Shown: positions 33,701 to 64,000, counted from the stretch's first letter. The stretch is 64,000 nt of DNA from an uncultured virus (IMG/VR IMGVR_UViG_3300027971_000053) (IMGVR_UViG_3300027971_000053), one strand, 5' to 3'. Numbers and translations are program-made. Notes: a model not told the origin generated them from the sequence alone.

Positions 33701-36700
33701 TAAATGCAATTCTTGATACAGCTCTTTCTTCTAAAGACCGCACAACATTTGAAGAAGCCAAACGTTTACTAGAAGAAGGCGTTAAAACTCGTGATACTAC
33801 TGACTACTCAGCCAGCGGTGTTGCTAAAGTTATGCCGGGCTTGGTAGACGCTATTAATGAACAAGCATATAGGGCGTCTTTAGGTAGAGAAATAGAAGCT
33901 AAAGAAACTTCACAAGCTATTGCCCGTGTTAAAGATGCGTTTGCTTCTCCAGTACAAACTGGTCCTAAAGGTAAAACCACTACTCAGCTAGAGTTTTTCC
34001 CGGGCGAAACAGCTACTATCAGGGCAGATGAAAAGAATTTAAGCCGCCTTGGGCAGCTTCGTAACGCTCGTGGTGCCGATGCTATTTCGTCAGGGCGTAA
34101 GTATTTTGCTGAGAAAGCTACTGGTGCGTTTAGACCAGCGGCTATGCTTAAGTATTTTGAAAGCCCTGAATTAGCCCAACTGCTTGACACTGCACAAGAG
34201 CTGCAAGCTGAAGGTAAAAAATACGCAAGCAAAGCAAAAGTGCTTAAGCGGCAGTCTACTAAAGATAAATACCGTGCAATGGCAGATGAAGCCTTTGCTA
34301 TGTACGACGAGACTATGGTAGAAGTTAACGAGTACGTTGACTTTATTGAAGATTACGCACGTAAAGCTATAGAAAAAGCAGACAAGCCAGCTGCTTTTAT
34401 TGCTGCGTTTGAAACACAAAAACAAACGGTACAAAAAGAACTTAGCAACGCTAAAAAAGTAATAGCTGCGCAAGAAGCTAAAGAGGCTGCTGCCGTAGAA
34501 GAAAAACTTACTGTTGCAAGAGCCAAACTTAAAAAAGCTAAAACAAGCGAAGAGCGAAACTTTTTGCTCGATGAAATTTCTGCTTTAGAAAAAACTAAAA
34601 GACCTGACATAGTAGACGAATTAGCCGCAGCTGAAAGAAAAGTGCGGGGCGCTAAAACGCTTAAACAAAAAATTGAAGCCCGTGCTGAGGTGCTTAAAAT
34701 TCAAAGTAACGCTTTAGATAACGTTATTAAAGACACCAAAGAGCGTATTGCTGAAGAACAAGCTAGCGCTGCACAACAAACTGGATTAGGCTTACCGGGT
34801 ACTAGAACTCAATTTAAAACACTGCCTCGTATGGAGGCAGAACTACCAAACCGTTTTCCAACAATTCAATCTAAATTTGAATTTGCTCGTACGTACTACA
34901 AAGAAATGCTTGCTGCTCGCAGCATGACTATGAACACTAAGCAGCGCCAAGCGCTTGTTGAAAAACGTAAAAAGTATGAAGACGCTGTAGTTAGTTTAGA
35001 TAAAGCGTTTAAGCAGAACAACGTAGACAGCCGGATTGCCACCGTGATGCGCAACATGGTTACGATGGAAGAAGGTACGCCTCAGTACAGAAAAGCTGAG
35101 AATTTAATACTAAGTATTGAAGAGCGTATTCAACAAGCTATTGCTGGTCTTAAACCTAAAACAGAAACTATTGCCATAAAAGGCGTAGAAACTAAAGAAG
35201 CTGTTGAAAACGAGGCTAAAGTAAAAGAAGTAATTGGAGAGTACTCATACGAAAGCGTTAAACCATCAGGTCCTGAACAAACCGCTGCTGAGAAAGCTGT
35301 TGGTCGCATATCTGAAACAGAACTGGCTAAGTTACGTAAAGTAAAACAAACCCGCTTTGACTTTGTTACCAAGCGTTTGGCAGATCAAAAAGCTCCAGTT
35401 GCAGATCGTGCTGCTCTTGTTGACGAATTACAGCGCAAAGAAAAAGGACCTAACGGACAAGAAATAACTGTTGGTCTTGAAGCTGAAATTAAAGCTATTG
35501 ATGAAATTCTTAACGCACGCCGTATTGGTATGGTTGTCGGTCAAGCGCAAGAAGAAAAAGGCTCTAAGAAGTACAAGGCAACTGTTACTGAAAAAGAAAT
35601 GGAGAAAGCCGGTAAGTTTGATAAAGCCGGTGTGCACCCAGAGTCTTATAGTCTTGTAGCTAAAGCATACAAAGACCGCACTGCTGACAAACAAAAACGA
35701 GAAGCAAATAAAACCCCAGCAGCTGTAACAAAACTGATTAAAGAAATTGCAGCGCTTCAAACTGAAATTCAATACGACAACTTACCTGCTCCTAAAATAG
35801 TTGAGAAGATGGCGTTAATTTCCGATAAAAGAGCTCAAGTTGAACGTGCTACTTTAGAGTTTACCGAAACGCTAGAAGCCAAAAAAATGGGTATCAGCGT
35901 TGAAGAGTACCGTCGTATCTTTAACTTTATGAACGCTGGTGAGTTTGTTTTTGACGCTGATGTCAGTCTTACTAAAGACCAAGTAGAAAAAGAAAACGCT
36001 AGAAGACGCAAAGAATCTGATGTTGATTTTCGTGTAGGTAGCGGTAAGTCTGTTGGTTTGCAAATGCTTAGAGCGGACGCTAAAGCTGTTGTTGACAAGA
36101 TTAAGTTACCTAAAGGGCTTGACATTACTGTTATACAAGAGCTTTCTCCAATGGTTAAAGAGTACATCCGTACTCGAGGCGTTGACCCTGAGAGCGTTAA
36201 AGGCTTTGTAACTAACAACGGCTCTGTAGTTATTGTTGCAGGCAAGCACGAAAATGCCAAAGACGTTGAAGCTACTGTTGCCCACGAAGTTATTGGTCAC
36301 TTGGGCGTTGAGCAAACGCTTGGTCAAGCCGGTATGGAAAAGCTGGTACAGCATATCACCGCACAAAAGGGCGGTGTAATGGGTCTTGCTTCTAAGCTAG
36401 GTGTTTGGAAAGAAGCCTATGGCGCATATGCTGCGGCTCTTAACTCAGGCAAAACCAAAGAAGAAGCCCAAGCCGATGCCGTGCATGAAATGATTGCGCA
36501 CGTTGAAGAAAAACGTCCGGGCAGAAGTGGCTTTGAAGACTTTAAGGTTTTTGTTAAGGCGTTGGTTGGTGTATTGCGTGCGGCTTTGCGTAAGTTCAAC
36601 ATTAACCTTGACATTGATACAAACGACATCTACAAGATTTTGCGTGATGCTCGTAAGAATTTTGACGCTGTGTCTCCCGGTCTTTACAAAAAAGAGAACG

Positions 36701-42392: not shown

Positions 42393-42560
42393 TTAATAAC
42401 TGCGTGTTTGTACTATTTTGTCAGCAAAGCGGCGAACTAACTCTATTTGAAAATTCTTAGGCAAGCCTTGTGTATATACAAAATCTTCAGCAAAACGTAA
42501 CAGTTCAAGATCACTAAGGGATGAGGCATGGATTGGGGTTTCTATTGGTGTTTGTTGCAT
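42393..42560 (-). CDS. Small hypothetical protein (55 aa, not in ORF track)
   Basis: MQQTPIETP...LSDLELLRFA...FQIELVRRF; fills the gap in the operon. Confidence 0.55.
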   Translation of the reverse strand: MQQTPIETPIHASSLSDLELLRFAEDFVYTQGLPKNFQIELVRRFADKIVQTRSY

Positions 42561-42808
42561 TGTCTTAGTGCCTCTTCTGATGTCTTGCTTGATTGGAGTA
42601 TGTTCAACAAGGACTGCACACGCATCTTATATGCGTTGGTTACTTCGGTTCCGCTGAACCAGTTGTACACAGTTTGTCTTGTTGCGCCTGTAAATTTTGC
42701 TACTTCTATTACTGGGAAATCTAAGCTGATCGCCCACCGCCCCAACTGGTTGCCCAGCGTCTTAGGTGCGTTCTTTGTGGTGTTTCTAATTTCTTCTGAA
42801 TAAGCCAT
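42542..42808 (-). CDS. Cro/XRE-like HTH protein
   Basis: VIEVAKFTGATRQTVYNWFSG. Confidence 0.75.
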   Translation of the reverse strand: MAYSEEIRNTTKNAPKTLGNQLGRWAISLDFPVIEVAKFTGATRQTVYNWFSGTEVTNAYKMRVQSLLNILQSSKTSEEALRQCNKHQ

Positions 42809-51273: not shown

Positions 51274-51454
51274 AGCGTTTCCTTACCTCGTCAAGACGTT
51301 GCAGACAGATTACGATTTTATTTAGTTGTTGGTTAAGAATCTGTTGATCGCCAACTTGATACGACTTGAGCGCAACAATAACCTCAGCTTCAAGGTTACA
51401 TAGTGCGGCGTTCTCACGCATCATCAATAGAACTTCACCTTCCGACATGGGCAT
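51251..51454 (-). CDS. Hypothetical protein
   Basis: 67 aa; AAGGAG RBS. Confidence 0.5.
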   Translation of the reverse strand: MPMSEGEVLLMMRENAALCNLEAEVIVALKSYQVGDQQILNQQLNKIVICLQRLDEVRKRYDTRSQS

Positions 51455-51737
51455 CTTTAATCTCCTTTAAAAACGATTGACCTTTAGCGCCGACAAAAAG
51501 ATCTACACCCCGTCTGTCGTCTCTGTCTTGTTTCTCAAGCACAAACTTCTTGGCAATGAGTTTGTGTAAGTACTTGTGCGTGGTGGCTGGTGACATAACT
51601 GCTTGTGCTTCAGCTATCTTCAGTACTGACATTGTACCTAGCGGTGCTTCTGCATTAACCATGCCTAGTACATACTCTTCTTGCCACGATATTTTGTGGC
51701 GGTTTCGTACTACTTGTGTATCGTATGCGTTACTCAT
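51435..51737 (-). CDS. MarR-like winged-HTH protein
   Basis: SPATTHKYLHKLIAKKFV...DDRRGV. Confidence 0.7.
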   Translation of the reverse strand: MSNAYDTQVVRNRHKISWQEEYVLGMVNAEAPLGTMSVLKIAEAQAVMSPATTHKYLHKLIAKKFVLEKQDRDDRRGVDLFVGAKGQSFLKEIKDAHVGR

Positions 51738-55366: not shown

Positions 55367-56482
55367 TTATTTGGTTGAGAAGTAAATCTTGTTGTCATTC
55401 ATCAATGCTTGGAACGGCTTGACTGTGACGAACAATGCGGCACGAGTAGAGTTAGCAATGTTGTTAGCGAACATAGACTGCAACTCCTTGCGGTTACGCA
55501 TGACGTACTCGGTGCATGCCTCGGCTTCCTCTCGTGTGCTTGTATCCGTAACACACTTGAGCACAGTAATGATCTGCGCCACAGGATTGCTAGGGATAGG
55601 GCAAGTAGATGGTGAGCTAACTATTCTGCTAAACGCAGGCGTCTCGTCACCGAAGCGAATGAACGCACCCAATTCCTCAGCACCAGCACGACCGATCGTA
55701 CCCTCGAGTAGACCCTGCAACGTATCGGTATCCATGAACTCACGCTCTTTGACAATGTCTGACGCAGAGTGTAGTGAGCGAGGTGTGATGTAAGCCTGCT
55801 GAGATAACAACGGATTGAAGATAACGTCATTCTCCTTAGACTGATCACGACCTGCATACTTACCGCCATCTTGATAGTCAAGGAAGCTATCGAACCATTT
55901 CGTGTGTCGCTCGGTGCATGCCAAGATGATAGAGTCGATGCCGTTGTCGATACCCCAGTTGTACCACTCAGGTTGCGTAGGCTTACGCATAGTCAAGAAC
56001 ACAAGACGATTACGCAAGTGCGCCTGTATCGAATCACCCAAGCCCTCGACCGCAAGGTTAGTACCAGCGAACACGACTGAACCCTCAGCCATCTGATAGT
56101 TACCAACGGCACGCTCGTACACAATCGGAGCAAGTACGTCTTTGATGTACTGCTTAGCCTTAGCCAACTCATCGAGGAACACAAGCGATGGGCGAGCACC
56201 ATTGATACCCCTTTGATTAGCCTTGCTGACACCGAAGCGCTCGTTGGGTAGCTCACGAGATACGCCTGCATCACGATCAATGTCAGGCATCCACACAGAA
56301 CCATCAGACATCTGAGTACAGTCGAGCTTGACCGCAACGTGATTGGCGAAGTGTGGGTCACGCTCAAGGGTGTGATAAATACCAGTCTTACCGATACCAT
56401 TCTCACCTTGAACAATGATGGTGCGCTTGTGACCAATCATCTTGATTGCGTTTGCTACTTGTAATGAATTAAGTAATTTCAT
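55367..56482 (-). CDS. MoxR-like AAA+ ATPase
   Basis: GENGIGKT, FLDE, LRNR, TPRS; adjacent to vWA partner. Confidence 0.85.
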   Translation of the reverse strand: MKLLNSLQVANAIKMIGHKRTIIVQGENGIGKTGIYHTLERDPHFANHVAVKLDCTQMSDGSVWMPDIDRDAGVSRELPNERFGVSKANQRGINGARPSLVFLDELAKAKQYIKDVLAPIVYERAVGNYQMAEGSVVFAGTNLAVEGLGDSIQAHLRNRLVFLTMRKPTQPEWYNWGIDNGIDSIILACTERHTKWFDSFLDYQDGGKYAGRDQSKENDVIFNPLLSQQAYITPRSLHSASDIVKEREFMDTDTLQGLLEGTIGRAGAEELGAFIRFGDETPAFSRIVSSPSTCPIPSNPVAQIITVLKCVTDTSTREEAEACTEYVMRNRKELQSMFANNIANSTRAALFVTVKPFQALMNDNKIYFSTK

Positions 56483-56560: not shown

Positions 56561-57544
56561 TTAACCTCCTTTCTTGTTGGCACGGGTGTAATAAGTTCTC
56601 GGCAACGTCTTGTCAAACTGTGGCAGGGCTATTGAATCTGTACCCTTGGATAGCCCAGCAAACGACATCAGCCTAGCTACCAATGACTTCTTGAACTCGT
56701 CAGCGGTAATGGCTTGTACTATGTCATCAGCCTTTTCCTGCGCATCGTCAGCCTCGGCAGGGTTGCGTGACCTAGCCCAACCACTCATCTTGTGGAACAG
56801 ATTGCCGCTATGCTCGTTGTACACCTTCTTACTAGCTAGCATGTCGAAGCAATCCTGCGCTACCTCGTCAAAGGTCTGCATAAAAGCCGTTGACTCAAGG
56901 GGTAGGGGTAGGTTAAACAGCGCATCCATCATGGTTGACTGAAGGGCATACCCTAGGCGTGACTCACCAAACGGCTTGCCCATGTTAGACGATAGGTTGA
57001 CACACTCCTTAAGCGTGGGTAGCTTGAACATCTGAAGCGTGACGTAGGCATCGAGTTCTTTCTTGATGTCCTTGCGCTTTTGCTTGTCACCCTCGTTTGA
57101 GGCAAGGCGGTATATATCTGCATGCCATGACTTCTCCGCAATGAGTTGGTGAGAGCTGTTGTAGGTAAGCAAAGCCGAGAAGTCTTTGCCCTGCTCCTTG
57201 TAGTGTGGGTTGAGTGGCAAGCGAACTGCATCGCCTGTGGTAGTGCGTAAGCCAATGCCGTTGTAGTAGCCTGTGAACTTGTACTGTAGTTGTATGTCAT
57301 AAGTACCATACAAGCCAATGACTGCTACCTCGTACTCACCCTGATCATTTGGTTCATACACCCTGACGACATCTACGCCGTTGACCTTGTACACATAGCT
57401 GTGTGCGTCCTTCTGAAGCATGAGGTTGTACTCGGATACCCTGCGTAGGGGTCGTTGGAACTCGTTGTACCGCTTACTGCGTGGTGGCTTCTTGGTCTTG
57501 TTGAATTGATCTTGTGCTGATTGGTAGGTTACTGTTGTGTACAT
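56561..57544 (-). CDS. Hypothetical early protein
   Basis: 327 aa; AAGGAG RBS. Confidence 0.7.
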   Translation of the reverse strand: MYTTVTYQSAQDQFNKTKKPPRSKRYNEFQRPLRRVSEYNLMLQKDAHSYVYKVNGVDVVRVYEPNDQGEYEVAVIGLYGTYDIQLQYKFTGYYNGIGLRTTTGDAVRLPLNPHYKEQGKDFSALLTYNSSHQLIAEKSWHADIYRLASNEGDKQKRKDIKKELDAYVTLQMFKLPTLKECVNLSSNMGKPFGESRLGYALQSTMMDALFNLPLPLESTAFMQTFDEVAQDCFDMLASKKVYNEHSGNLFHKMSGWARSRNPAEADDAQEKADDIVQAITADEFKKSLVARLMSFAGLSKGTDSIALPQFDKTLPRTYYTRANKKGG

Positions 57545-57561
57545 ATTGATTCTCCTTTGGT

Positions 57562-58416
57562 TTACTTGCTGATTGAAATAGTTGCATTGCTTAGGTACGA
57601 GTCAACCGCACCATCGATCTTGTCGCTGACCACATCATCAATGCGATCGCCAACTGCATCACTCACCGCATCATCGAAGTCGAAGTGGTAGCTTGGGTCA
57701 AAGTTATTCTCGAAGTAAGACTCAACCTCACTCTCCACAACTTCTTGCACAGCGTCTTTGGCTAGGTCTTCGATGCCTGCCCCGATCAACTCATGTCGCA
57801 CCAAGTCTTTGAACCAGTCTGCTTGTTGTAGTGTGAGTGATACGCATTCTTGGAGAGAATTCTCTCCAGCCTCGGGTTGGGCTTTAGATTGGCTGATGAC
57901 CGAAGTAAGAAGCTGAAGCTGGGTACAGATGTTGTTGATGATGTCGGCTAGGGTTGGGGTAGCCTGTGGTTCGGGTGCGCCGAGTGTACCCCCGTGTGTG
58001 TACTGAATTGCATCAGGGTTTGGTAGGCGTATGTTGTCTACTATGTCCTGCATTGTTGGTTCGGGTATAGCCCTGTTCTCCACAAGTGAGTGCAATACTT
58101 CCTTGGTTTCTCTCGGCACTTCGGGTGCGTTAAGGTGGTCGAGTAATAGTTCTTTCAATCCGATATTTTCCATCTGCTTAAACTCCTCGTCTTGTTCGTG
58201 GGTTGTAGGTACTGCGTTGTTAAGGTCTTGCATTGTGAATGTGGTCATGCTGTTTCTCCTTGTGGTAATGGTTCGATTGATTTCATCTACTTCGGCGATA
58301 ACCCACTCATCTGTGGGCTCAAAGATTTCCATAGCTATTTCGCAGGCATCTTCGGGACTCTCTGCCTCAACTAACTCAACGGAATAGCTAGCTACTACAA
58401 CTCGGTACTCTTTCAT
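57562..58416 (-). CDS. Acidic hypothetical early protein (second strong start at 58248)
   Basis: 284-aa ORF; internal AAGGAGAAACAGC-ATG; very acidic C-terminus. Confidence 0.65.
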   Translation of the reverse strand: MKEYRVVVASYSVELVEAESPEDACEIAMEIFEPTDEWVIAEVDEINRTITTRRNSMTTFTMQDLNNAVPTTHEQDEEFKQMENIGLKELLLDHLNAPEVPRETKEVLHSLVENRAIPEPTMQDIVDNIRLPNPDAIQYTHGGTLGAPEPQATPTLADIINNICTQLQLLTSVISQSKAQPEAGENSLQECVSLTLQQADWFKDLVRHELIGAGIEDLAKDAVQEVVESEVESYFENNFDPSYHFDFDDAVSDAVGDRIDDVVSDKIDGAVDSYLSNATISISK

Positions 58417-58868
58417 ACGCTTTCTCCTATCGCTTGGTTGAACTGCTCGGATACACCTACTTCTACTTCTTCGCTACTATGCTTACTTCTAATCGTTACA
58501 TACGCACCACCATCTGTGATGGCTATTTCCTGATGTCCTATACCACCCCACCCATTTTCTATATCACAGTCAATACCTAAATGAAACACGATTGATTGCG
58601 CCCCTTGAAGGGACTTGACTAGCCCTCGTGCCATCTTGTACTCCAATATGTAGTCGTCTTTGATCGTGACATCAATCCATACAGGCAGGTCGGTGTACTC
58701 GCTGTTGGTGTACATATCCTCGGTAAACTCGATGGGGTGTGAGCAGTCTTTCTTTAGCTCAGCCCATGCTTGCGCCCAATCTTCTTGCGTATCAGGGTCT
58801 GTTGGTGGTTCGCTAAGCCACTCGTTGTCCCCACTATGTAAGTACATGTATCGTCTGCTGTTACTCAT
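58413..58868 (-). CDS. Acidic hypothetical early protein
   Basis: Start reassigned to MSNSRR after AGGA; ATGA overlap downstream. Confidence 0.6.
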   Translation of the reverse strand: MSNSRRYMYLHSGDNEWLSEPPTDPDTQEDWAQAWAELKKDCSHPIEFTEDMYTNSEYTDLPVWIDVTIKDDYILEYKMARGLVKSLQGAQSIVFHLGIDCDIENGWGGIGHQEIAITDGGAYVTIRSKHSSEEVEVGVSEQFNQAIGESV

Positions 58869-58870
58869 CT

Positions 58871-59005
58871 CTATTTCCTTTCTCCTAGTTCGCATAGTTT
58901 GGCTATGCACCATAACAACCCAGCAAATAACCCAAAGGTAAGACCAACGGATATAAGCCAAGCACCTATCTCCAACAACCAATACGCCCAATCAATTGCT
59001 TCCAT
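58871..59005 (-). CDS. Small membrane protein (44 aa, not in ORF track)
   Basis: MEAIDWAYWLLEIGAWLISVGLTFGLFAGLLWCIAKLCELGERK; GGAG RBS. Confidence 0.55.
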   Translation of the reverse strand: MEAIDWAYWLLEIGAWLISVGLTFGLFAGLLWCIAKLCELGERK

Positions 59006-59249
59006 GACTAAACTCCGAGTAGCCACAGTTCTCAACTAAATGGCGTGCCATATCACTAATGAGGGTTTCAATCTCATCTAGCACTTCGCCACCATACTTA
59101 AACTCCCACTCAGTCAACGCACTACTTACTTCGTTAATGCGTTCCCACTCAGCTACGCTATCGTCTCGTGCTGGTGGTGCGGTAAGGCAATGAATGATGT
59201 TAGGTAAGTCTTCTTCTAATGCGGTTTCATACTCTGTGTAGTAACTCAT
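58992..59249 (-). CDS. Acidic hypothetical early protein
   Basis: 85 aa; GAGGAG RBS. Confidence 0.6.
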   Translation of the reverse strand: MSYYTEYETALEEDLPNIIHCLTAPPARDDSVAEWERINEVSSALTEWEFKYGGEVLDEIETLISDMARHLVENCGYSEFSHGSN

Positions 59250-59611
59250 ACCAACTCCTCCTCTCGTGCTAATACGCCTTCAATAAACCCATTAACAAAG
59301 CTAGGCAAGCCATCATCAACGGGGTCGTGATCTTTTAGGTATAGCTTTGTAGCGTGTGCCTCTAACTCTTGTATGTACTCATCGTCATACACCCAGTCGT
59401 ATGTCTCAACAGGGCGAATGATGTACAGGTAGTTTGTGGTATCAACGCCATCTTTTGCGAACTTGAACTTCATGCGGTCGATCTCCGCTTTCGCTTCTTC
59501 TACATACAGATAGCCATACTTGGCATACACACATTTGCCAGCCAACCCACCATCGAATACATCTACTGTGTACGACTCGCCTTTCGGCACTTGCTTTAGT
59601 CTGCCTCTCAT
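59246..59611 (-). CDS. Hypothetical early protein
   Basis: 121 aa; AAGGAG RBS. Confidence 0.65.
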   Translation of the reverse strand: MRGRLKQVPKGESYTVDVFDGGLAGKCVYAKYGYLYVEEAKAEIDRMKFKFAKDGVDTTNYLYIIRPVETYDWVYDDEYIQELEAHATKLYLKDHDPVDDGLPSFVNGFIEGVLAREEELV

Positions 59612-59671
59612 AATGATTCTCCTTGTCTAATAGATTGTGCTAGTTGTTGGAGAGAATTCTCTCCGTCTCTT

Positions 59672-59779
59672 TTAAAACCACACCCACAACATAAAGGCAC
59701 GAAACATCTGTGCGATAAAGAAAAGTGCAACTAAAGCTAGCACCGCCCATATAAACCGATCTTCGTCCATCCATTTCAT
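59672..59779 (-). CDS. Small membrane peptide (35 aa, not in ORF track)
   Basis: MKWMDEDRFIWAVLALVALFFIAQMFRAFMLWVWF; ATGA overlap. Confidence 0.5.
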   Translation of the reverse strand: MKWMDEDRFIWAVLALVALFFIAQMFRAFMLWVWF

Positions 59780-60417
59780 AATGCACCTACCTTTCTTCGT
59801 TTGATTAACTCGTTGATTTTGATGCTTGGAGAGATTTCTCTCCCGTCCTTTGCTTGCTCAAGCAAGTCTTGTCTTATTCGTTTAGCCTCTGCGTAGTTGT
59901 AGCTATGTTGATCTAGCAAAGCGTGTTGTAGGGGTGTTGCGTCTTCGGGCATTTGATTCTTGTATGAGTAGTAGCGGCTAGCATACGCCGTGACCTGTTT
60001 TTGTAGGTTTGTTTTAAGTTCATCTTGCCACAGGGTTCGCTTCTTCTGCCAATACTCTTTCATTACCTTTGCCCTTTTCTTGGGCAGGGCTTCACGCTTC
60101 TCGGCTATCAGGGCTTCGCCTATCGTGGGGTTCATGTCCCCGCTACTTATTTTATTTCTTATCTCTTTGATGCTTAGCGGTGTTCTGCGTTTGCGTTGGT
60201 TTCTACAGTCTTTGCACAATGAGCTGTACAGCGTGTGCCGTGTGGTTAGGTTCGGTTTGCGTAGCAACGCTTTGCTCTGTGCAAGGGTGAGCACCCGATG
60301 GAAATCTTTTTTGGGTTTGGTTTCACCGCAAGTTTTGCACAGAAGAGTGATGACCGAAGTTGGGAGAGAATTCTCTCCGAGTTGTGTGTTGACGGATTTT
60401 CCCTTGTGCTGGTGCAT
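59776..60417 (-). CDS. Basic Zn-finger-containing early protein
   Basis: AAGGAG RBS before MHQHK; CKTCGETK...CKDC. Confidence 0.65.
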   Translation of the reverse strand: MHQHKGKSVNTQLGENSLPTSVITLLCKTCGETKPKKDFHRVLTLAQSKALLRKPNLTTRHTLYSSLCKDCRNQRKRRTPLSIKEIRNKISSGDMNPTIGEALIAEKREALPKKRAKVMKEYWQKKRTLWQDELKTNLQKQVTAYASRYYSYKNQMPEDATPLQHALLDQHSYNYAEAKRIRQDLLEQAKDGREISPSIKINELIKRRKVGAL

Positions 60418-60434
60418 GATGTTCTCCTTAAAAA

Positions 60435-60735
60435 TCTGCCAATAGTCTACCAATTCACTGCAGGTGGACGCAGTACTAGACGCCACGAGAAGTATACATT
60501 ATAAGGCTTGAGAGATATAGTGACCAAGATATATACGAGTCACAGAGTTTTATTAAAGTAACTAAGTTTTTCAACAAGATTACTCTGTCCACTTTTTTCT
60601 CTCTTATTATTATGTATTCTATTCTCTTTTATATATATATAGGTAGGTTGCCAAGTTGACGCAATCATATTCTATATACCTTTGGGGGTGTCCACTATGT
60701 GTCCACTAGTGCTCAAATGGTAGACTATTGGCAGA
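60435..60735. repeat. 18-bp perfect inverted repeat flanking an AT-rich non-coding core
   Basis: TCTGCCAATAGTCTACCA (60435-60452) / TGGTAGACTATTGGCAGA (60718-60735). Confidence 0.9.
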
Positions 60736-60805
60736 AAAGGGGGTAAAAGGTGTTCTCCACAATAGCTTGCAGAGAACCTATGTGATGGAGAGAATTCTCT
60801 CCGAG

Positions 60806-61021
60806 TCATGCCCACTTAGAGCGAGCCAATGCGACTGTTGTCACAATGAACCAACCATCTTGAAAGCCATCATTAGCACCTAACTTCTTGAGTGCATTGA
60901 GTGCTGTCTTGTAGTGGTCGTGGCATTTCATTGTGCCGTCAGTATCTCGTTGGAATGAACAGATAAGCCCGTCCTCTTTGTAGATAACATGATAGCCCGT
61001 TGGGTTGAGTTTCTTTTTCAT
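60806..61021 (-). CDS. Hypothetical early protein
   Basis: 71 aa; AAGGAG RBS. Confidence 0.6.
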   Translation of the reverse strand: MKKKLNPTGYHVIYKEDGLICSFQRDTDGTMKCHDHYKTALNALKKLGANDGFQDGWFIVTTVALARSKWA

Positions 61022-61025
61022 GGTG

Positions 61026-61184
61026 TTACTCCTTATGTTGTTTGTAAATGGTGATGCTGAACTGATTGAACGCTGACTGCATGGATACTTCTACCTCTAC
61101 TTCTTTGGGTTTTGTGCAGGGTTTCTGCACAACTTGTTGCTTAGCCTGAGCCTTAAGTAAGGCGCATTGTTGCTTGGTTAACAT
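61026..61184 (-). CDS. Hypothetical early protein (52 aa, not in ORF track)
   Basis: MLTKQQCALLKAQAKQQVV...; AAGGAG RBS. Confidence 0.55.
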   Translation of the reverse strand: MLTKQQCALLKAQAKQQVVQKPCTKPKEVEVEVSMQSAFNQFSITIYKQHKE

Positions 61185-61321
61185 GGTGATTCTCCTTTGT
61201 AGTGCTTCTGTAATATGGTTTCGATCTTTAGTACTGTGGTGCGTAGGTGCTTGGCAATGTATTCGGGAGATCGACCCTTGTGATACATCAAGCAGACGAT
61301 AAAGCTAGAGAACATAGTCAT
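61178..61321 (-). CDS. Small HTH-like early protein (47 aa, not in ORF track)
   Basis: MYHKGRSPEYIAKHLRTTVLKIETILQKHY fits an HTH pattern; GAGGAG RBS, ATGA overlap. Confidence 0.55.
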   Translation of the reverse strand: MTMFSSFIVCLMYHKGRSPEYIAKHLRTTVLKIETILQKHYKGESPC

Positions 61322-61542
61322 ACTTGCTCCTCGTATGTTCTGAACCAAAAGGCTAGGCTTTCGTGTGTGCCAGACCTATTATCAGACGGCTCGTTACTAA
61401 ACCGCAGTACATACTGATGGTCGCACTTGTACATATCCGCAGGCTCATACTTTTGAATAGGCACAAACACAGTACCCAAGAACTGACAGGCAGGACAATC
61501 GTGTTCGTACAAAGGTGTTGCTAAGTGTTTCATTGATGACAT
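61318..61542 (-). CDS. Hypothetical early protein with HDCxxC motif
   Basis: YEHDCPACQFLG; AAGGAG RBS. Confidence 0.65.
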   Translation of the reverse strand: MSSMKHLATPLYEHDCPACQFLGTVFVPIQKYEPADMYKCDHQYVLRFSNEPSDNRSGTHESLAFWFRTYEEQV

Positions 61543-61584
61543 GGTGTTTCTCCTTCGTTGGTTGGGAGAGAATTCTCTCCGAGG

Positions 61585-61812
61585 TTAACCCCACACAGAG
61601 ATGTGTGAAGTGAGTTCATACGACAAGCGATCGTGGAGATCGTCCCAATCATATGTGGTGAGCCTGTGCTTTTGATCTCTAGCCAACTCAATGAGTTTGG
61701 CAAGGTCTTGCGGAGACATGGACAATACAACGCTGTTCCGCTTGAACTCTTTGTAGTCAATGGCTATTGGCTTAGCCTTCTTTGGGATTGGTTTTGCTGG
61801 TGCTTTTTGCAT
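61585..61812 (-). CDS. Hypothetical early protein
   Basis: 75 aa; AGGAG RBS. Confidence 0.6.
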   Translation of the reverse strand: MQKAPAKPIPKKAKPIAIDYKEFKRNSVVLSMSPQDLAKLIELARDQKHRLTTYDWDDLHDRLSYELTSHISVWG

Positions 61813-61899
61813 GATTAACTCCTGTGTTGTGGTACTTGTTGGTGGGAAAGGGCAAGACTTGACACGAAACTAAACAGCCTTGAAGCCTCGCCCTCTCGG

Positions 61900-62322
61900 T
61901 TACTTGCGTGAAACACGCTTGAAAAACTTCTCCTGCTGAGCTTTAGTCATTGACTCAACCAAAGCCAAAGCCTGCTCCACAACATCTACCTGAGCTGATA
62001 CTGTTGCTGAGTCCTTCTTAGTCTCAGGGCGAATGATGTGATACCTAAAGTCAGAATAGGCTCTTGAATAGGCGTTGTTGTGCTCCTTGTTGCGTTGTGT
62101 ACGGCTCTTGGAGAGAATTCTCTCCGCAACTTGTTGCGTAACATCTAACTGACCCATCAAGTGTTGCGTGACCCACTCCTTGAGCCTGTCGGCTCGTGTT
62201 GTGCTGTCGGCTTTCTTGTACTCCAAATGCCACACAAGAGATGACTCACGCAACAAGCGGGCTTGAGTGCCTAGACCAAAGGCGAATTGTGAATAAGATA
62301 CAACGATTGAGTTTTGTTTCAT
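61900..62322 (-). CDS. First gene of the leftward (early) operon, hypothetical
   Basis: 140 aa; AAGGAG RBS; contains one palindrome copy. Confidence 0.7.
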   Translation of the reverse strand: MKQNSIVVSYSQFAFGLGTQARLLRESSLVWHLEYKKADSTTRADRLKEWVTQHLMGQLDVTQQVAERILSKSRTQRNKEHNNAYSRAYSDFRYHIIRPETKKDSATVSAQVDVVEQALALVESMTKAQQEKFFKRVSRK

Positions 62323-62344
62323 GGTATTACTCCTTGATTAAGAT

Positions 62345-62376
62345 AAAAAAAATCGGCTGAAAACTTCTCAACCGAT
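62345..62376 (-). terminator. Terminator-like hairpin in the early leader
   Basis: - strand ATCGGTTGA-GAAGTTT-TCAGCCGAT followed by a T-tract. Confidence 0.55.
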
Positions 62377-62382
62377 ACCTCT

Positions 62383-62388
62383 ATTATA
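62383..62388 (-). promoter_or_regulatory. Putative -10 box of early promoter
   Basis: Perfect TATAAT on - strand; no convincing -35. Confidence 0.45.
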
Positions 62389-62626
62389 AAGATTGGGGTA
62401 TTTTTTAAACGATTTGAACCCCACCCGATACCCACCAACCTGTTTGGTCGTCAAGCCTGCTTGTCCCCCAGATCACTGTTCCTCAGCCATTCCGTTGAAT
62501 TTTGTCAAATCTTGTATAAAAGCGATTTACCGGGGGGTATAAATTTTATAAAAAATGCTAGGGGTTATGTCAAACTTTATACAGAAAAGTGCATGAAATT
62601 TCAATAAAAAAACATGCAAAACTAAA

Positions 62627-62657
62627 TGATGCAGCGCAACAAAATGTGTAATATAAT
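62627..62657 (+). promoter_or_regulatory. Promoter with TGATGCAGCGCAACA dyad over the -35 region
   Basis: TATAAT at 62652-62657; imperfect dyad at 62627-62641. Confidence 0.5.
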
Positions 62658-62687
62658 ACACAAACTAATAACCTAAAGGAGAAAACC

Positions 62688-62804
62688 ATGTTTGATTTCA
62701 CTAAACAAACCAAGCAGTTCGAGCAGTTGGCAGAGCGCATCAAGGAAGTAAACGATTTTTGGATCGACGCTTTTATTTCAAGCATCAAGCAGTTCACTAA
62801 GTAA
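62688..62804 (+). CDS. 38-aa amphipathic peptide (not in ORF track)
   Basis: AAGGAG RBS; MFDFTKQTKQFEQLAERIKEVNDFWIDAFISSIKQFTK; own promoter; hairpin after stop. Confidence 0.7.
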   Translation: MFDFTKQTKQFEQLAERIKEVNDFWIDAFISSIKQFTK

Positions 62805-62891
62805 TAAAAAACCCCCACGTCTTAGGTGGGGGTTCAAAAAATGCCCTACTAATCAACACCAACGCCCAAACGAAGGAGGAAAAGCGCTGGT
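62805..62891 (-). ncRNA. Candidate ~87-nt sRNA with anti-Shine-Dalgarno loop
   Basis: TATAAT at 62898-62903 (-); 10-bp 5' stem with loop UUCCUCCUUCGUUU; 3' terminator with U-tract. Confidence 0.55.
62806..62834 (-). terminator. Intrinsic terminator (U-tract on - strand), probably shared with the convergent peptide gene
   Basis: AAAA-AACCCCCAC-GTCTTAG-GTGGGGGTT on +. Confidence 0.7.
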
Positions 62892-62974
62892 AAACAAATT
62901 ATACACAAAAACTAAAAAACAATATATACTCCAGCCATACGTGAGCACCACACGCAACCAAAGGGGAATAGCAT

Positions 62975-63553
62975 TTGTTTTTAGAACACCTAGTCACAGC
63001 ATCTGCAGCAGACTTTGTACCGGACATCCTGCCCGACAAGACCCCTTTCACTGAATTAAATACCACCACACCAGCGCAAACGCTAAACGCCCAGAAGAAA
63101 ACATCTGACTGGTTAGCCCAGTTTGACGACGATGACGAAGCAACGCTTACTAAAACCCAAGAAGAAAAAGTAACCGACACTTTCAACGCTTTAACCCGTG
63201 CAGACCCCAACGCAAAAAACAAATTACTACAGCTCGACCTGCCAGAAGAGATAAAAGCAGCTATTGGAATGGTGACGGCCTACCAGTGGAAGTTTGTTGA
63301 GCAGGCAGAAAACTTAAGAAGCCTTGCGGTATCGAAAATAGTAAAAGAAATTGAGCACCCCGACGCCCGTATCAGGCTTAAAGCATTGGAAATGCTAGGA
63401 AAAGTTACAGAAGTGGCGTTGTTCACCGACAGAGTCCAAGTAAAAACAGAAGAAATCAGTGACGAAGAGTTAGATAAACAGATCAAAGACAAACTTGAGC
63501 GGTACATGGGCGCTGTTGATGTAGTAGATGCCGATGTTAAGGATGTAGAGTAG
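62975..63553 (+). CDS. Putative terminase small subunit
   Basis: Directly upstream of TerL; RLKALEMLGK motif; TTG start after AAGGGG. Confidence 0.6.
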   Translation: MFLEHLVTASAADFVPDILPDKTPFTELNTTTPAQTLNAQKKTSDWLAQFDDDDEATLTKTQEEKVTDTFNALTRADPNAKNKLLQLDLPEEIKAAIGMVTAYQWKFVEQAENLRSLAVSKIVKEIEHPDARIRLKALEMLGKVTEVALFTDRVQVKTEEISDEELDKQIKDKLERYMGAVDVVDADVKDVE

Positions 63554-63555
63554 TC

Positions 63556-64000
63556 GTGGATTTAGATTTTTTAACTCCCGAAGAAGCCTTGGCAGCACAA
63601 AAGGCACTCAAAGACATGAATAAAGCGCAAAAGATTGCATATCTGAATCTTTTGGAGAAGAAAGAAGAGCGCGGTAATTTAAAACTAGCGCAGACAAGCC
63701 CGATAGAGTTCGCAAAACGCGTATATCCTGGGTTTAAAGTAGGCCCGCACCATAGAAGGTTAGCTAAAATCTTCCAAGACGTAGTCGATGGTAAGAAAAA
63801 GCGGGTTATTATTAATATTGCACCACGTATGGGTAAGTCGGAGTTCAGCTCTTACTTATTCCCCGCCTATTTTTTAGGCAACTTCCCCCATAAGAAGATC
63901 ATCATGGGAACCCATACGGCGTCTCTCTCCGAAGACTTTGGTCGACGGGTAAGGAACTTAATTGACTCAGAAGAATACAGAGAAATCTTCCCAGATACCG
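63556..64000 (+). CDS. terL: Terminase large subunit, N-terminal part (3' truncated)
   Basis: Open from GTG 63556; PHHRRL, RVIINIAPRMGKS Walker A, FGRRVRN. Confidence 0.88.
   Translation, partial: MDLDFLTPEEALAAQKALKDMNKAQKIAYLNLLEKKEERGNLKLAQTSPIEFAKRVYPGFKVGPHHRRLAKIFQDVVDGKKKRVIINIAPRMGKSEFSSYLFPAYFLGNFPHKKIIMGTHTASLSEDFGRRVRNLIDSEEYREIFPDT

What the first reader, a model, noticed from the sequence alone, without database searches (positions are those of the whole stretch)
57852..62125. Array of seven 16-bp palindromes confined to the early region, inside and between genes
Seen: GGAGAGAATTCTCTCC, a perfect palindrome, occurs six times exactly and once with one mismatch within 4.3 kb. I saw none in the remaining ~60 kb; the chance expectation for a given 16-mer in 64 kb is about 1.5e-5. 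Three copies are intergenic and four lie in ORFs, read in different frames (GENSL twice, ERILS, REIS), so selection is on the nucleic acid, not the protein. The copies bracket the AT-rich inverted-repeat element at 60.4-60.7 kb. Known: clustered 16-bp dyads in coding and non-coding DNA are the layout of parS/ParB and SlmA/Noc-type sites and of phage roadblock operators such as mycobacteriophage stoperators. This sequence is not canonical parS, and no ParB or integrase is visible. Inference: a binding-site array for an unidentified dimeric protein that silences, partitions or protects the early DNA. Candidate binders are the HTH ORFs at 61178-61321, 42542-42808 and 51435-51737, and the first early gene at 61900-62322, which carries a site itself.
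Basis: partly seen in the sequence, partly recalled or inferred. Interest (0 to 1): 0.88.

Follow-up and report, generated by a model that had tools for sequence, protein, structure and literature searches.

The report
Phage early-gene dyad array with cognate protein
Seven copies of a 16-bp palindrome in the early genes of an uncultured freshwater phage are most likely binding sites for a two-copy complex of the phage's first early protein, because related phages carry different palindromes at the same places and only that protein changes along with them.

Summary
GGAGAGAATTCTCTCC occurs 6 times exactly and once with one mismatch at 57852-62125, and nowhere else in 64 kb.

It is one case of a family-wide system. 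All 18 related loci that cover the early region carry their own recurrent dyad, and 13 dyad types are seen in all. The dyads sit at homologous positions, including inside conserved ORFs, and are confined to one 4-5 kb early block in three complete genomes. Arms are 7 bp. The 2-3 central bases are free and used without strand bias, which favours two-fold recognition of duplex DNA.

Of all shared proteins, only the first early gene product ("F4", window 61900-62322, minus strand) diverges in step with the dyad: Mantel r = 0.61, p = 0.0004, against controls of r -0.33 to 0.28. On 39 unique proteins r = 0.68.

F4 belongs to an unannotated family of about 140 aa. It folds confidently as an all-helical protein with no solved analogue, and is predicted to form a symmetric homodimer (0.82 against a best control of 0.00).

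No binding was measured, and DNA versus RNA recognition and the function (early shut-off by roadblock, in my reading) are inferred.

The parts
62110..62125 (.). Dyad 1, exact. It lies inside the F4 gene and encodes A-E-R-I-L-S in predicted helix 4.
61565..61580 (.). Dyad 2, exact and intergenic. Its end lies 22 nt upstream of the ATG of 61318-61542.
60787..60802 (.). Dyad 3, exact. It lies 3 nt after the stop of 60806-61021, upstream of the AT-rich region.
60363..60378 (.). Dyad 4, exact. It lies in the 5' end of gene 59776-60417 (family F5), about 40 nt after its ATG.
59828..59843 (.). Dyad 5, with a central mismatch (AA centre on the minus strand). It lies in the 3' end of gene 59776-60417. 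Relatives carry their own dyad at the homologous position.
59649..59664 (.). Dyad 6, exact and intergenic, upstream of the RBS of 59246-59611.
57852..57867 (.). Dyad 7, exact, inside gene 57562-58416 (family F3). Relatives carry their own dyad at the homologous position.
61900..62322 (-). F4, the first early gene (140 aa). It is the proposed cognate dyad-binding homodimer and has a variable N-terminal and central part with a conserved C-terminal two-helix module.
62383..62388 (-). TATAAT -10 element of the proposed early promoter. The sequence TATAATAGAGGTATCG is shared with relatives.
   Evidence: sequence reading; not experimentally mapped
62352..62376 (-). Leader hairpin followed by a T-run, between the -10 element and the F4 RBS. 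In most relatives a dyad sits next to, or forms, the equivalent hairpin.
60498..60526 (-). Second sigma-70-like promoter (TGGTCA-17-TATAAT), inside the AT-rich region bracketed by dyads 3 and 4.

Best explanation
The seven dyads are the cognate sites of a homodimer of F4, the product of the first early gene (61900-62322, minus strand). F4 is made first from a host-type early promoter and binds the 7+2+7 bp dyads as double-stranded DNA along the first ~4.5 kb of the early operon, including a site inside its own gene. In most relatives one site lies between the promoter and the F4 RBS. Bound dimers then damp or shut off early transcription, acting as elongation roadblocks and possibly by looping around the internal promoter at 60.5 kb.

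Each phage lineage has its own F4 specificity, and all of its sites have been retuned to match.

Shown: the array exists, it is confined to the early block, whole dyads are swapped between relatives, and the co-variation is exclusive to F4.
Predicted by models: the F4 fold and the homodimer.
Inferred: binding itself, duplex DNA as the bound form, and the roadblock or shut-off role.
For: 1. The array is real and confined. In three genomes rated 100% complete (G004, G007, G008), the dyads lie in one 4-5 kb early block only.

2. All 18 of the 18 ATPase-anchored loci with at least 5 kb upstream of the anchor have a recurrent dyad family. The 11 other loci have under 2.5 kb upstream.

3. At homologous positions, including inside ORFs of families F5 and F3 whose flanks align, the whole dyad is replaced by the type of that genome.

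4. In 134 unique sites, 99 have perfect 7-bp arms. Centres are AA 31, TT 27 and AT 21 on the sense strand, so there is no strand bias. Both orientations occur within one genome.

5. F4 subfamilies coincide with dyad classes {A,D}, {B,C,K}, {G,I} and {E}. Cross-class identity is 36% or less. F5, F3, F6, F7 and F1 show no such partition, and their cross-class identity reaches 71-92%.

6. Mantel test on 14 genomes: F4 r = 0.61, p = 0.0004. Controls on the same genomes: F5 0.22, F3 0.08, F6 0.07, F1 0.28, F2 0.28, F7 -0.33, all p > 0.08. On the enlarged set of 39 unique F4 proteins and 12 dyad types, r = 0.68, p = 0.0005. Within subfamilies r = 0.84 (15 proteins) and 0.68 (19 proteins).

7. One column, T[K/R]QWQR, separates GGGGACA (K in 10 of 10) and TGGGACA (K in 4 of 4) from GGGAACA (R in 5 of 5). 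The equivalent positions 89-90 of the window protein are fixed in all GGAGAGA proteins and differ in each other type.

8. In 22 of 23 B/C/K loci a dyad starts 36-39 nt upstream of the F4 start. F4 flanked by that genome's own dyads is also found in the most distant genomes, G007 and G008.

9. Homodimer prediction: score 0.82 against a best control of 0.00. The runs agree on at least 82% of contacts and the partner pLDDT is at least 79. That mark was reached by 20 of 30 proteins solved as pairs of one chain and by 1 of 23 proteins solved as single chains.

10. Host-type promoters are present upstream, at 62383-62388 and at 60498-60526.
Against: - No binding was measured.
- F4 matches no DNA-binding family. 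Nothing passes a Pfam cut-off, and the only hint is a sub-threshold HTH_AraC match (E = 0.0046) in 1 of 14 members. There is no PHROG hit and no PDB sequence hit (best E = 0.1).
- The confident model (pLDDT 93.4) has no structural analogue. Foldseek's best match is E = 0.67 at TM 0.20. VIA's best Z is 5.7, which is within the noise for helical proteins.
- The predicted dimer interface includes residues 87-88 and 90-92, the very column proposed to set specificity.
- The K/R association may rest on a single evolutionary event. The AU test does not reject one clade for the R-bearing proteins (p = 0.362). Only 1 independent pair lies on supported branches. In addition, 95 of 3003 label assignments give at least one separating column.
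- Two dyads flank or lie in F4, so part of the correlation is physical linkage. The Mantel tests do not correct for phylogeny.
- No dyad in the window overlaps a -35 or -10 element, so these are not classical operators.
- In some relatives the leader dyad is followed by a T-run and would form a terminator-like RNA hairpin. That keeps an RNA-level role open.
- Whole-genome tests found no other co-varying protein, but several type-B and type-C genomes are incomplete.
Confidence: 0.5

Rival explanations
1. F4 recognises the dyads as RNA hairpins in the early transcript (6-7 bp stem, small loop). It would then act like lambda N at boxB, or as a translational or attenuation regulator, rather than binding DNA.
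For: F4 is the first early gene, and in relatives a dyad sits in its leader between the promoter and the RBS. In one group of relatives the leader dyad is directly followed by a T-run, which makes it terminator-like. Every leader has a hairpin plus T-run. All sites lie within the early transcription unit, and 3 of 7 window sites are intergenic near an RBS or a stop codon. F4 has no recognisable DNA-binding fold. The N/boxB comparison is recalled, not tested.
Against: The stems are conserved while the loop is free, and AA and UU centres are used equally. That is the opposite of known loop-specific hairpin binders. G.U-compatible mismatches are not enriched on the sense strand: 8 G.T against 24 A.C/C.A, and away from the outermost position the counts are about equal. 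A 2-nt centre cannot form a loop unless the conserved A-T pair at position 7 opens. A symmetric homodimer fits a duplex dyad better than a single hairpin. Four of 7 sites lie inside ORFs, far from any RBS or terminator.
Confidence: 0.15
2. F4 does bind the dyads as DNA, but the role is in replication or genome handling rather than transcription. It could be an origin-recognition protein (like lambda O with its dyad iterons beside an AT-rich stretch) or a centromere or condensation protein (ParB/parS-like) that marks the first-entering DNA.
For: Dyads 3 and 4 bracket an AT-rich region with three direct AGTGGACA repeats and a 16-nt inverted repeat. F4 has a variable part plus a conserved C-terminal module, which could contact a conserved partner. 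16-bp palindromes lying partly inside genes resemble the parS layout. The lambda O and parS comparisons are recalled.
Against: The sites are spread over 4.3 kb rather than clustered at the AT-rich region. No ParB, ParA or integrase domain was found in the 42 ORFs scanned with Pfam or the 60 scanned with PHROGs. The most conserved site position in relatives is in the leader of F4, next to the early promoter, which points to transcription.
Confidence: 0.12
3. The dyads are bound by some other factor, such as a host protein or a phage protein outside the sampled regions. On this reading F4 tracks the dyad type only because it is physically linked to two of the sites.
For: F4 has no known nucleic-acid-binding fold. 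Two dyads flank or lie in F4, so cassette exchange would carry both together. The type-C arm contains GAAC-N4-GTTC, which I recall as the LexA box of Gram-positive bacteria.
Against: Dyads up to 5 kb away, embedded in genes F5 and F3 that do not track the type, still match F4. For example, the window and L009 share 70% identity in F5 yet have unrelated dyads with different centre lengths. Phages with 92-98% identical ATPase carry four different dyad types, which is hard to explain by a host factor. No other shared protein has whole-length identity or even one alignment column that partitions by type. The 2850-aa virion protein does not track type either.
Confidence: 0.13
4. The dyads are N4-type hairpin promoters, or terminators, for a virion-packaged RNA polymerase.
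For: A 2850-aa virion protein gene lies beside the ejection-protein genes. The array is in the first-transcribed region, and hairpin-forming sequences are present. The features of N4 promoters are recalled.
Against: The large protein has no DxDGD motif. It has an LPD38 domain, an HExxH motif and coiled coil, and gives no PDB or PHROG polymerase match. No T7-like RNA polymerase appears in 42 ORFs scanned with Pfam. Asymmetric centres occur in both orientations in one operon. Four of 7 sites are inside ORFs. Sigma-70-like promoters are present.
Confidence: 0.02
5. The dyads are purely structural elements with no sequence-specific partner, for example mRNA-stabilising hairpins, RNase sites or recombination linkers that are kept uniform by gene conversion.
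For: The cultured relative RHph_TM3_14A has more than 40 conserved-stem hairpins at gene junctions. The early region is highly mosaic.
Against: Structure alone does not require identical arms at all sites in a genome, nor a concerted change of all sites between close relatives, nor co-variation with one protein. Sixteen bp is short for homologous exchange. Four of 7 sites lie inside ORFs.
Confidence: 0.03

Closest known systems
Cluster A mycobacteriophage immunity repressor and stoperators (L5, Bxb1, Trixie)
   Same: Many copies of a short phage-specific site lie inside transcribed regions and are bound by a phage protein that blocks elongation. Repressor and site motif diverge together among relatives. 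Sources: PMC6550527, passages read; PMC9283540, abstract only, from the listing.
   Different: Stoperators are asymmetric, oriented with transcription, spread genome-wide and bound by a monomeric HTH repressor of temperate phages (same sources). Here the sites are two-fold symmetric and confined to one early block. The proposed binder is a predicted homodimer of an unannotated fold, encoded as the first early gene. No lysogeny genes were seen in the ORFs scanned.
Lambdoid Cro/CI with operators (imm lambda, imm434, immP22)
   Same: A small dimer, encoded first in an early operon, binds 14-18 bp two-fold symmetric sites with weakly specified central bases. Protein and sites co-vary between related phages. 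All of this is recalled, not tested.
   Different: Lambda operators overlap the promoters and number six in two clusters. In the window no dyad overlaps a -35 or -10 element, 4 of 7 sites are inside ORFs, and the sites span 4.3 kb. F4 shows no Cro or HTH match.
ParB/parS, Noc/NBS and KorB/OB arrays
   Same: 16-bp palindromes occur in several copies, some inside genes, clustered in one part of the replicon (recalled).
   Different: No ParB/Srx-type domain or ParA was found. F4 is 140 aa, all-helical and unrelated by sequence.
Lambda N with boxB (nut sites)
   Same: The first early gene product co-varies with a hairpin-forming site that lies between the early promoter and its own gene (recalled).
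   Different: In boxB the loop is specific and there are two sites per genome. Here the loop or centre is free, the arms are specific, and there are 6-9 sites per genome.

Membership tests
Stoperator system (Cluster A mycobacteriophages) | Asymmetric site of about 13 bp, oriented with the direction of transcription | tested here: not met
   The sites are perfect 7+2+7 dyads. Asymmetric centres occur in both orientations. The defining feature is taken from PMC6550527 passages.
Stoperator system (Cluster A mycobacteriophages) | Sites distributed across the whole genome | tested here: not met
   Sites are confined to 57852-62125 in the window and to one 4-5 kb block in the complete genomes G004, G007 and G008.
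Stoperator system (Cluster A mycobacteriophages) | Binding protein and site motif diverge together among related phages | tested here: met
   F4 Mantel r = 0.61, p = 0.0004, with non-significant controls. On 39 proteins r = 0.68.
Cro/CI-type repressor and operator | Two-fold symmetric site of 14-18 bp bound by a dimer | tested here: inconclusive
   The symmetry is met. The dimer is only predicted: 0.82 against a best control of 0.00, a mark reached by 20 of 30 proteins solved as pairs of one chain and 1 of 23 solved as single chains. Binding was not measured.
Cro/CI-type repressor and operator | Sites overlap the regulated promoter | tested here: not met
   No window dyad overlaps the promoter-like elements at 62383-62388 or 60498-60526. 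In relatives the leader dyad lies downstream of the -10 element.
Cro/CI-type repressor and operator | HTH (Cro/CI, HTH_3) DNA-binding domain | tested here: inconclusive
   No Pfam hit passes its cut-off. There is no significant structural match. A missing match does not exclude a divergent HTH.
ParB/parS | ParB (ParB/Srx N-terminal domain) protein encoded with the sites, usually together with ParA | tested here: not met
   None was found among the 42 ORFs scanned with Pfam or the 60 scanned with PHROGs. Short ORFs that were not scanned remain untested.
N4-like virion RNA polymerase with hairpin promoters | A virion-packaged RNA polymerase | tested here: inconclusive
   The 2850-aa protein has no DxDGD motif and gives no polymerase hit by Pfam, PHROGs or PDB sequence search. 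Its N-terminal 2100 residues were not folded.
N4-like virion RNA polymerase with hairpin promoters | Strand-specific hairpin with a defined 3-nt loop upstream of each start site | tested here: not met
   The window dyad has an even, self-complementary centre. Relatives use AA and TT centres equally on the sense strand. The defining feature is recalled.
Lambda N / boxB | RNA hairpin whose loop sequence is the recognition element | tested here: not met
   Central bases are free (26 different centres in 134 sites) while the arms are fixed. The defining feature is recalled.

The most novel reading that the evidence does not exclude
F4 and its dyads form a previously undescribed, rapidly re-specifiable 'private address' system of apparently virulent freshwater phages. 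A new fold of dimeric protein coats the first-entering 5 kb of its own genome at 6-9 sites. Lineages that are otherwise near-identical have switched specificity at least a dozen times, re-tuning every site, including those inside conserved genes. Such turnover would imply conflict between co-infecting relatives, a lytic-phage counterpart of heteroimmunity or superinfection exclusion, rather than simple housekeeping regulation. The K/R and residue 89-90 positions would give a readable protein-DNA recognition code for a new DNA-binding fold.
Probability: 0.25. Interest if true: 0.8.

Novelty: new variant of a known kind. Interest (0 to 1): 0.62.

Why it matters
If F4 binds these sites, this is a natural series of at least 12 matched protein-site pairs for a DNA-binding fold with no solved relative. 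The specificity-changing positions are already narrowed to a few residues. That would be useful for understanding how regulator and multi-site operator sets co-evolve, and as a source of orthogonal repressor-operator pairs.

It also shows that a site array can be retuned in concert even inside protein-coding sequence. Finally, it gives a functional handle on the otherwise unannotated early region of an abundant uncultured freshwater phage lineage.

Tried and rejected
- **Virion RNA polymerase.** The 2850-aa protein has LPD38, HExxH and coiled coil, no DxDGD motif and no PDB or PHROG polymerase hit. It is only 35-47% identical in the other type-A genome but 51-76% in type B and C genomes, so it does not track type.
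- **EcoRI or restriction-site idea.** GAATTC is not strongly avoided elsewhere, and dyad variants lack the site.
- **Whole-genome search for a co-varying protein by whole-length identity.** The only positive margins belong to short ORFs overlapping real genes.
- **Column test on 42 shared families.** It found 0 partitioning columns. F4 escaped both tests because its subfamilies are too divergent to cluster.
- **Independent K/R switches.** Not established: AU p = 0.362, and 1 supported independent pair.
- **F4 annotation.** Nothing from Pfam, a PDB profile search, tblastn against 50,697 phage records or the protein atlas (best score 0.83, within noise).
- **Structure searches.** No significant match.
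- **blastn of the region against cultured phages.** No match.
- **Rfam on 57500-63000.** Only one sub-threshold hit, 25 bits against a gathering score of 49.5.
- **Nearest cultured phages.** KPP25 has no dyad family and no F4. RHph_TM3_14A has a different, genome-wide dyad and no F4.
- **Literature.** No paper in the library holds any of the four dyad sequences. Concept searches found no description of this system.
- **Calls that returned nothing usable.** The window's own assembly is not held. The full F4 alignment was too divergent for a locus scan.

Full report
**Observation**

GGAGAGAATTCTCTCC occurs six times exactly (57852, 59649, 60363, 60787, 61565, 62110) and once with a central mismatch (59828). 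Allowing up to 3 mismatches finds nothing else in the 64 kb. Shuffled sequence gives a mean of 0.11 matches, and 0 of 100 shuffles reach 7. It is the only palindrome of 12 bp or more that recurs in the window.

Genes from 39.5 to 62.3 kb are on the minus strand. Three sites are intergenic and four lie in ORFs. The in-ORF sites are read in three frames, as AERILS, GENSL (twice) and GREIS.

**Context**

The window is most of a phage genome. It holds terminase genes at 62975-64000 (+), head, tail and ejection genes on the + strand, and a 2850-aa virion protein at 30787-39339. On the minus strand it holds a replication module with family A DNA polymerase, primase-helicase, SNF2 helicase and exonuclease.

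The nearest cultured phages are Rhizobium phage RHph_TM3_14A and Pseudomonas phages KPP25 and phiR18, at only 31-33% identity in the polymerase. The early region has no blastn match among 50,697 phage records. DNA runs that hold the region are freshwater metagenomes.

The dyads lie in the first ~4.5 kb of the leftward early operon. That operon starts at a non-coding region shared with the divergent terminase operon.

**Relatives carry different dyads in the same places**

I used the conserved ATPase (55367-56482) as an anchor and fetched 29 loci, 48-100% identical in that protein. All 18 loci with at least 5 kb upstream of the anchor carry a recurrent dyad family. The other 11 loci have under 2.5 kb upstream and do not cover the region.

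Eleven types appeared:
- GGAGAGA-NN-TCTCTCC (the window type)
- GGGGACA-NN-TGTCCCC
- GGGAACA-NN-TGTTCCC
- GGACGGA-NN-TCCGTCC
- TGGGACA-NN-TGTCCCA
- TGTGTG-N4-CACACA
- GCAGACA-NNN-TGTCTGC
- GTGGACA-NNN-TGTCCAC
- GAGGACA-NNN-TGTCCTC
- GGGGTGC-NNN-GCACCCC
- GTGCAG-N5-CTGCAC

Two more came from metagenome loci: GGACAGA and GGGGAGA.

Phages with 92-98% identical ATPase carry four different types. In three genomes rated 100% complete, the dyads are confined to one 4-5 kb early block.

An alignment of early regions shows the swap directly. At the in-ORF sites 59828 and 57852 the flanking coding sequence aligns, while the dyad is replaced as a unit by the type of each genome. Every site in a genome therefore changes together. 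This calls for a genome-specific trans-acting partner and excludes a purely structural element.

**Form of the recognised nucleic acid**

In 134 unique sites, 99 have perfect 7-bp arms. The central 2-3 bases are free, with 26 different centres, and are A/T-rich. AA (31) and TT (27) are used equally on the sense strand, and both orientations occur within one operon.

Mismatched pairs are A.C/C.A 24, G.T 8 and other 3. Twenty-one of the 35 are at the outermost position, where many type-B sites begin with A. Away from that position, A.C and G.T counts are about equal. There is thus no enrichment of G.U-compatible changes on the sense strand.

This pattern fits two-fold recognition of duplex DNA with uncontacted central bases. 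It gives no support for a strand-specific RNA or single-strand hairpin, but it does not exclude a hairpin binder that ignores the loop.

**Which factor?**

Whole-length identity across ten genomes and a per-column test on 42 shared families found no conserved protein that tracks dyad type. The 2850-aa protein does not track it either.

A gene-order map showed a conserved backbone:
- F4, the first early gene, with dyads in or beside it.
- F5, with a dyad at each end.
- F3, with a dyad inside.
- Then F1 and the ATPase F2.

F4 had escaped the earlier tests because its subfamilies are too divergent to cluster. When aligned, the F4 subfamilies coincide with dyad classes. These classes are {GGAGAGA, GGACGGA}, {GGGGACA, GGGAACA, TGGGACA}, {GTGGACA, GAGGACA} (both with 3-nt centres) and {TGTGTGA}. 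Cross-class identity is 36% or less.

The control families F5, F3, F6, F7 and F1 show no such partition. Their same-class and cross-class mean identities are 50/48, 50/48, 51/53, 53/58 and 66/51, and cross-class pairs reach 71-92%.

Mantel correlation between dyad distance and protein distance on the same 14 genomes gave:
- F4: r = 0.61, p = 0.0004
- F5: 0.22 (p = 0.08)
- F3: 0.08
- F6: 0.07
- F1: 0.28
- F2: 0.28
- F7: -0.33

I then fetched more F4-bearing loci, using F4 subfamily alignments as queries: 23 and 4 viral loci, and 19 metagenome loci. That gave 39 unique F4 proteins with 12 dyad types, for which r = 0.68, p = 0.0005. Within the two large subfamilies r = 0.84 and r = 0.68. These tests are not corrected for phylogeny.

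Linkage alone does not explain the result. Dyads embedded in F5 and F3, several kb away, match F4 even though those genes do not track type. For example, the window and L009 share 70% identity in F5 but have unrelated dyads.

**Candidate specificity positions**

In the B/C/K subfamily, exactly one column separates the types. In T[K/R]QWQR, K goes with GGGGACA (10 of 10 unique proteins) and TGGGACA (4 of 4), and R goes with GGGAACA (5 of 5).

In the window's subfamily, 11 positions are fixed in all GGAGAGA proteins and differ in every other type. Residues 89-90 are among them. They follow the near-invariant Ala88 and align with the K/R column.

Three caveats apply. First, 95 of 3003 label assignments give at least one separating column. 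Second, the AU test does not reject a single origin of the R-bearing proteins (p = 0.362). Third, only one independent pair sits on supported branches. Repeated independent switching is therefore not shown.

**What F4 is**

A profile search of 1.84 billion representative proteins found 82 family members at E of 0.001 or better. Nearly all are 126-152 aa. There is no Pfam, PHROG or PDB sequence match.

AlphaFold2 on an 87-row alignment gives mean pLDDT 93.4. The model has seven helices, with a flexible linker at 96-113 before a conserved C-terminal helix pair. Foldseek finds no match at E of 0.001 or better; the best is E = 0.67 at TM 0.20. The wide structural search gives a best Z of 5.7, which is within the noise for helical proteins.

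The homodimer test scored 0.82 against a best control of 0.00. The runs agreed on at least 82% of contacts and the partner pLDDT was at least 79. That mark was reached by 20 of 30 proteins solved as pairs of one chain and by 1 of 23 proteins solved as single chains. This supports pairing but does not show it.

Residues 61-78 (helix 4 and the loop KSRTQRN, with R74 and R77 conserved in the subfamily) are outside the listed interface. Residues 87-88 and 90-92 are inside it, which sits awkwardly with their proposed role in recognition.

**Regulatory setting**

Upstream of F4 the window has a TATAAT at 62383-62388, and the sequence TATAATAGAGGTATCG there is shared with relatives. A hairpin plus T-run follows at 62352-62376, then the RBS.

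In relatives the order is extended -10 promoter, leader hairpin plus T-run, dyad, RBS, F4. In one group the dyad itself precedes the T-run. In 22 of 23 B/C/K loci a dyad starts 36-39 nt before the F4 start.

The F4-plus-flanking-dyads unit is also present in the most distant genomes.

A second sigma-70-like promoter at 60498-60526 lies in the AT-rich region bracketed by dyads 3 and 4. No window dyad overlaps a promoter hexamer.

I therefore favour autoregulation and early shut-off by roadblock, possibly with looping. This step is inference.

**Comparison with known systems**

In logic, the nearest system is the Cluster A mycobacteriophage repressor-stoperator system. It has many sites in transcribed DNA, and protein and motif diverge together (PMC6550527, passages; PMC9283540, abstract). 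It differs in site symmetry, distribution, protein type and phage lifestyle.

Lambdoid Cro/CI-operator pairs, ParB/parS, lambda O with its iterons, and lambda N with boxB each share some features (all recalled) and fail others; see the membership table. None of the four dyad sequences appears in the searched literature.

**Verdict**

The array is real and is one member of a family-wide, co-evolving site-protein system. F4 as the cognate dimeric binder is the best-supported reading, at about 0.5 for the full mechanism and somewhat higher for F4 as the partner alone. The form bound and the biological role remain to be tested.

Noticed in passing
window 62418-62436 (minus strand); one copy in each of 43 fetched loci: The 19-mer GGTGGGTATCGGGTGGGGT is exactly conserved as a single copy, about 100-170 nt upstream of F4, in relatives of every dyad type. 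It is far more conserved than its surroundings. It could be a genome-end or packaging signal, or part of a leader or small RNA that ends at the hairpin at 62352-62376. There is no Rfam match.
   Followed up: partly
window 62352-62376 (minus strand) and equivalent leaders in L009, L017, L025, L068, L076, L080, L083, L086, L087: A terminator-like hairpin plus T-run sits between the early -10 element and the F4 RBS. In L065, L066, L070, L071, L075 and L081 the dyad itself is followed by the T-run. This may be an attenuator in front of F4.
   Followed up: partly
window 60436-60734: The AT-rich region holds three direct AGTGGACA repeats (60586, 60689, 60700, minus strand; 6 copies in the window against 1.8 expected), an (AT)n run and a 16-nt inverted repeat (60719-60734 and 60436-60451) around the promoter at 60498-60526. 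It may be an origin or a second regulatory site. GTGGACA is also the dyad arm of relative L017.
   Followed up: partly
L009, L011, L017, L025, L068, L076, L080, L083 upstream of F4; window 60753-60762: Early promoters in relatives carry their own palindrome, CCACAAnnnGTTGTGG, fused to TATAAT. TTCTCCACAA occurs 4 times each in L009 and L011. The window has one copy of the 10-mer in reverse orientation, just downstream of dyad 3.
   Followed up: no
L094 and L095 (Rhizobium phage RHph_TM3_14A, MN988472.1): More than 40 copies of GTTACCT-N4(3)-AGGTAAC are spread over the whole genome, mostly exactly at gene junctions on both transcription arms. The stems are conserved and the loops are free. There is no F4 homologue. 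I found no mention of this in the papers searched.
   Followed up: partly
window 62127-62136 and 61130-61139; L020, L023, L025: The palindrome CAACAAGTTG abuts dyad 1 and recurs in relatives as TGCCAACAAGTTGGCA-type sites. In the window the count is not significant: 3 matches against 1.0 expected.
   Followed up: no
L110 and L111: Genomes whose dyads are of the GGGGAG(A/G) type also carry one perfect GGGGACATATGTCCCC, the dyad of another type.
   Followed up: no
window 30787-39339: The 2850-aa virion protein has a C-terminal LPD38 domain, an HExxH motif near residue 1843 and long coiled-coil stretches. Its N-terminal ~2100 residues match nothing, and it is highly variable between close relatives.
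   Followed up: partly
protein P0026: An 1863-aa protein matches the N-terminal part of the F4 profile in four stretches (E = 1.5e-10). This suggests the F4 N-terminal module also occurs as a repeat in a large protein.
   Followed up: no
window 62110-62125 and L109 899-914: The dyad inside F4 encodes part of F4's own helix 4. The change from GGAGAGA to GGACAGA is absorbed as E67D plus a silent Leu codon change.
   Followed up: yes
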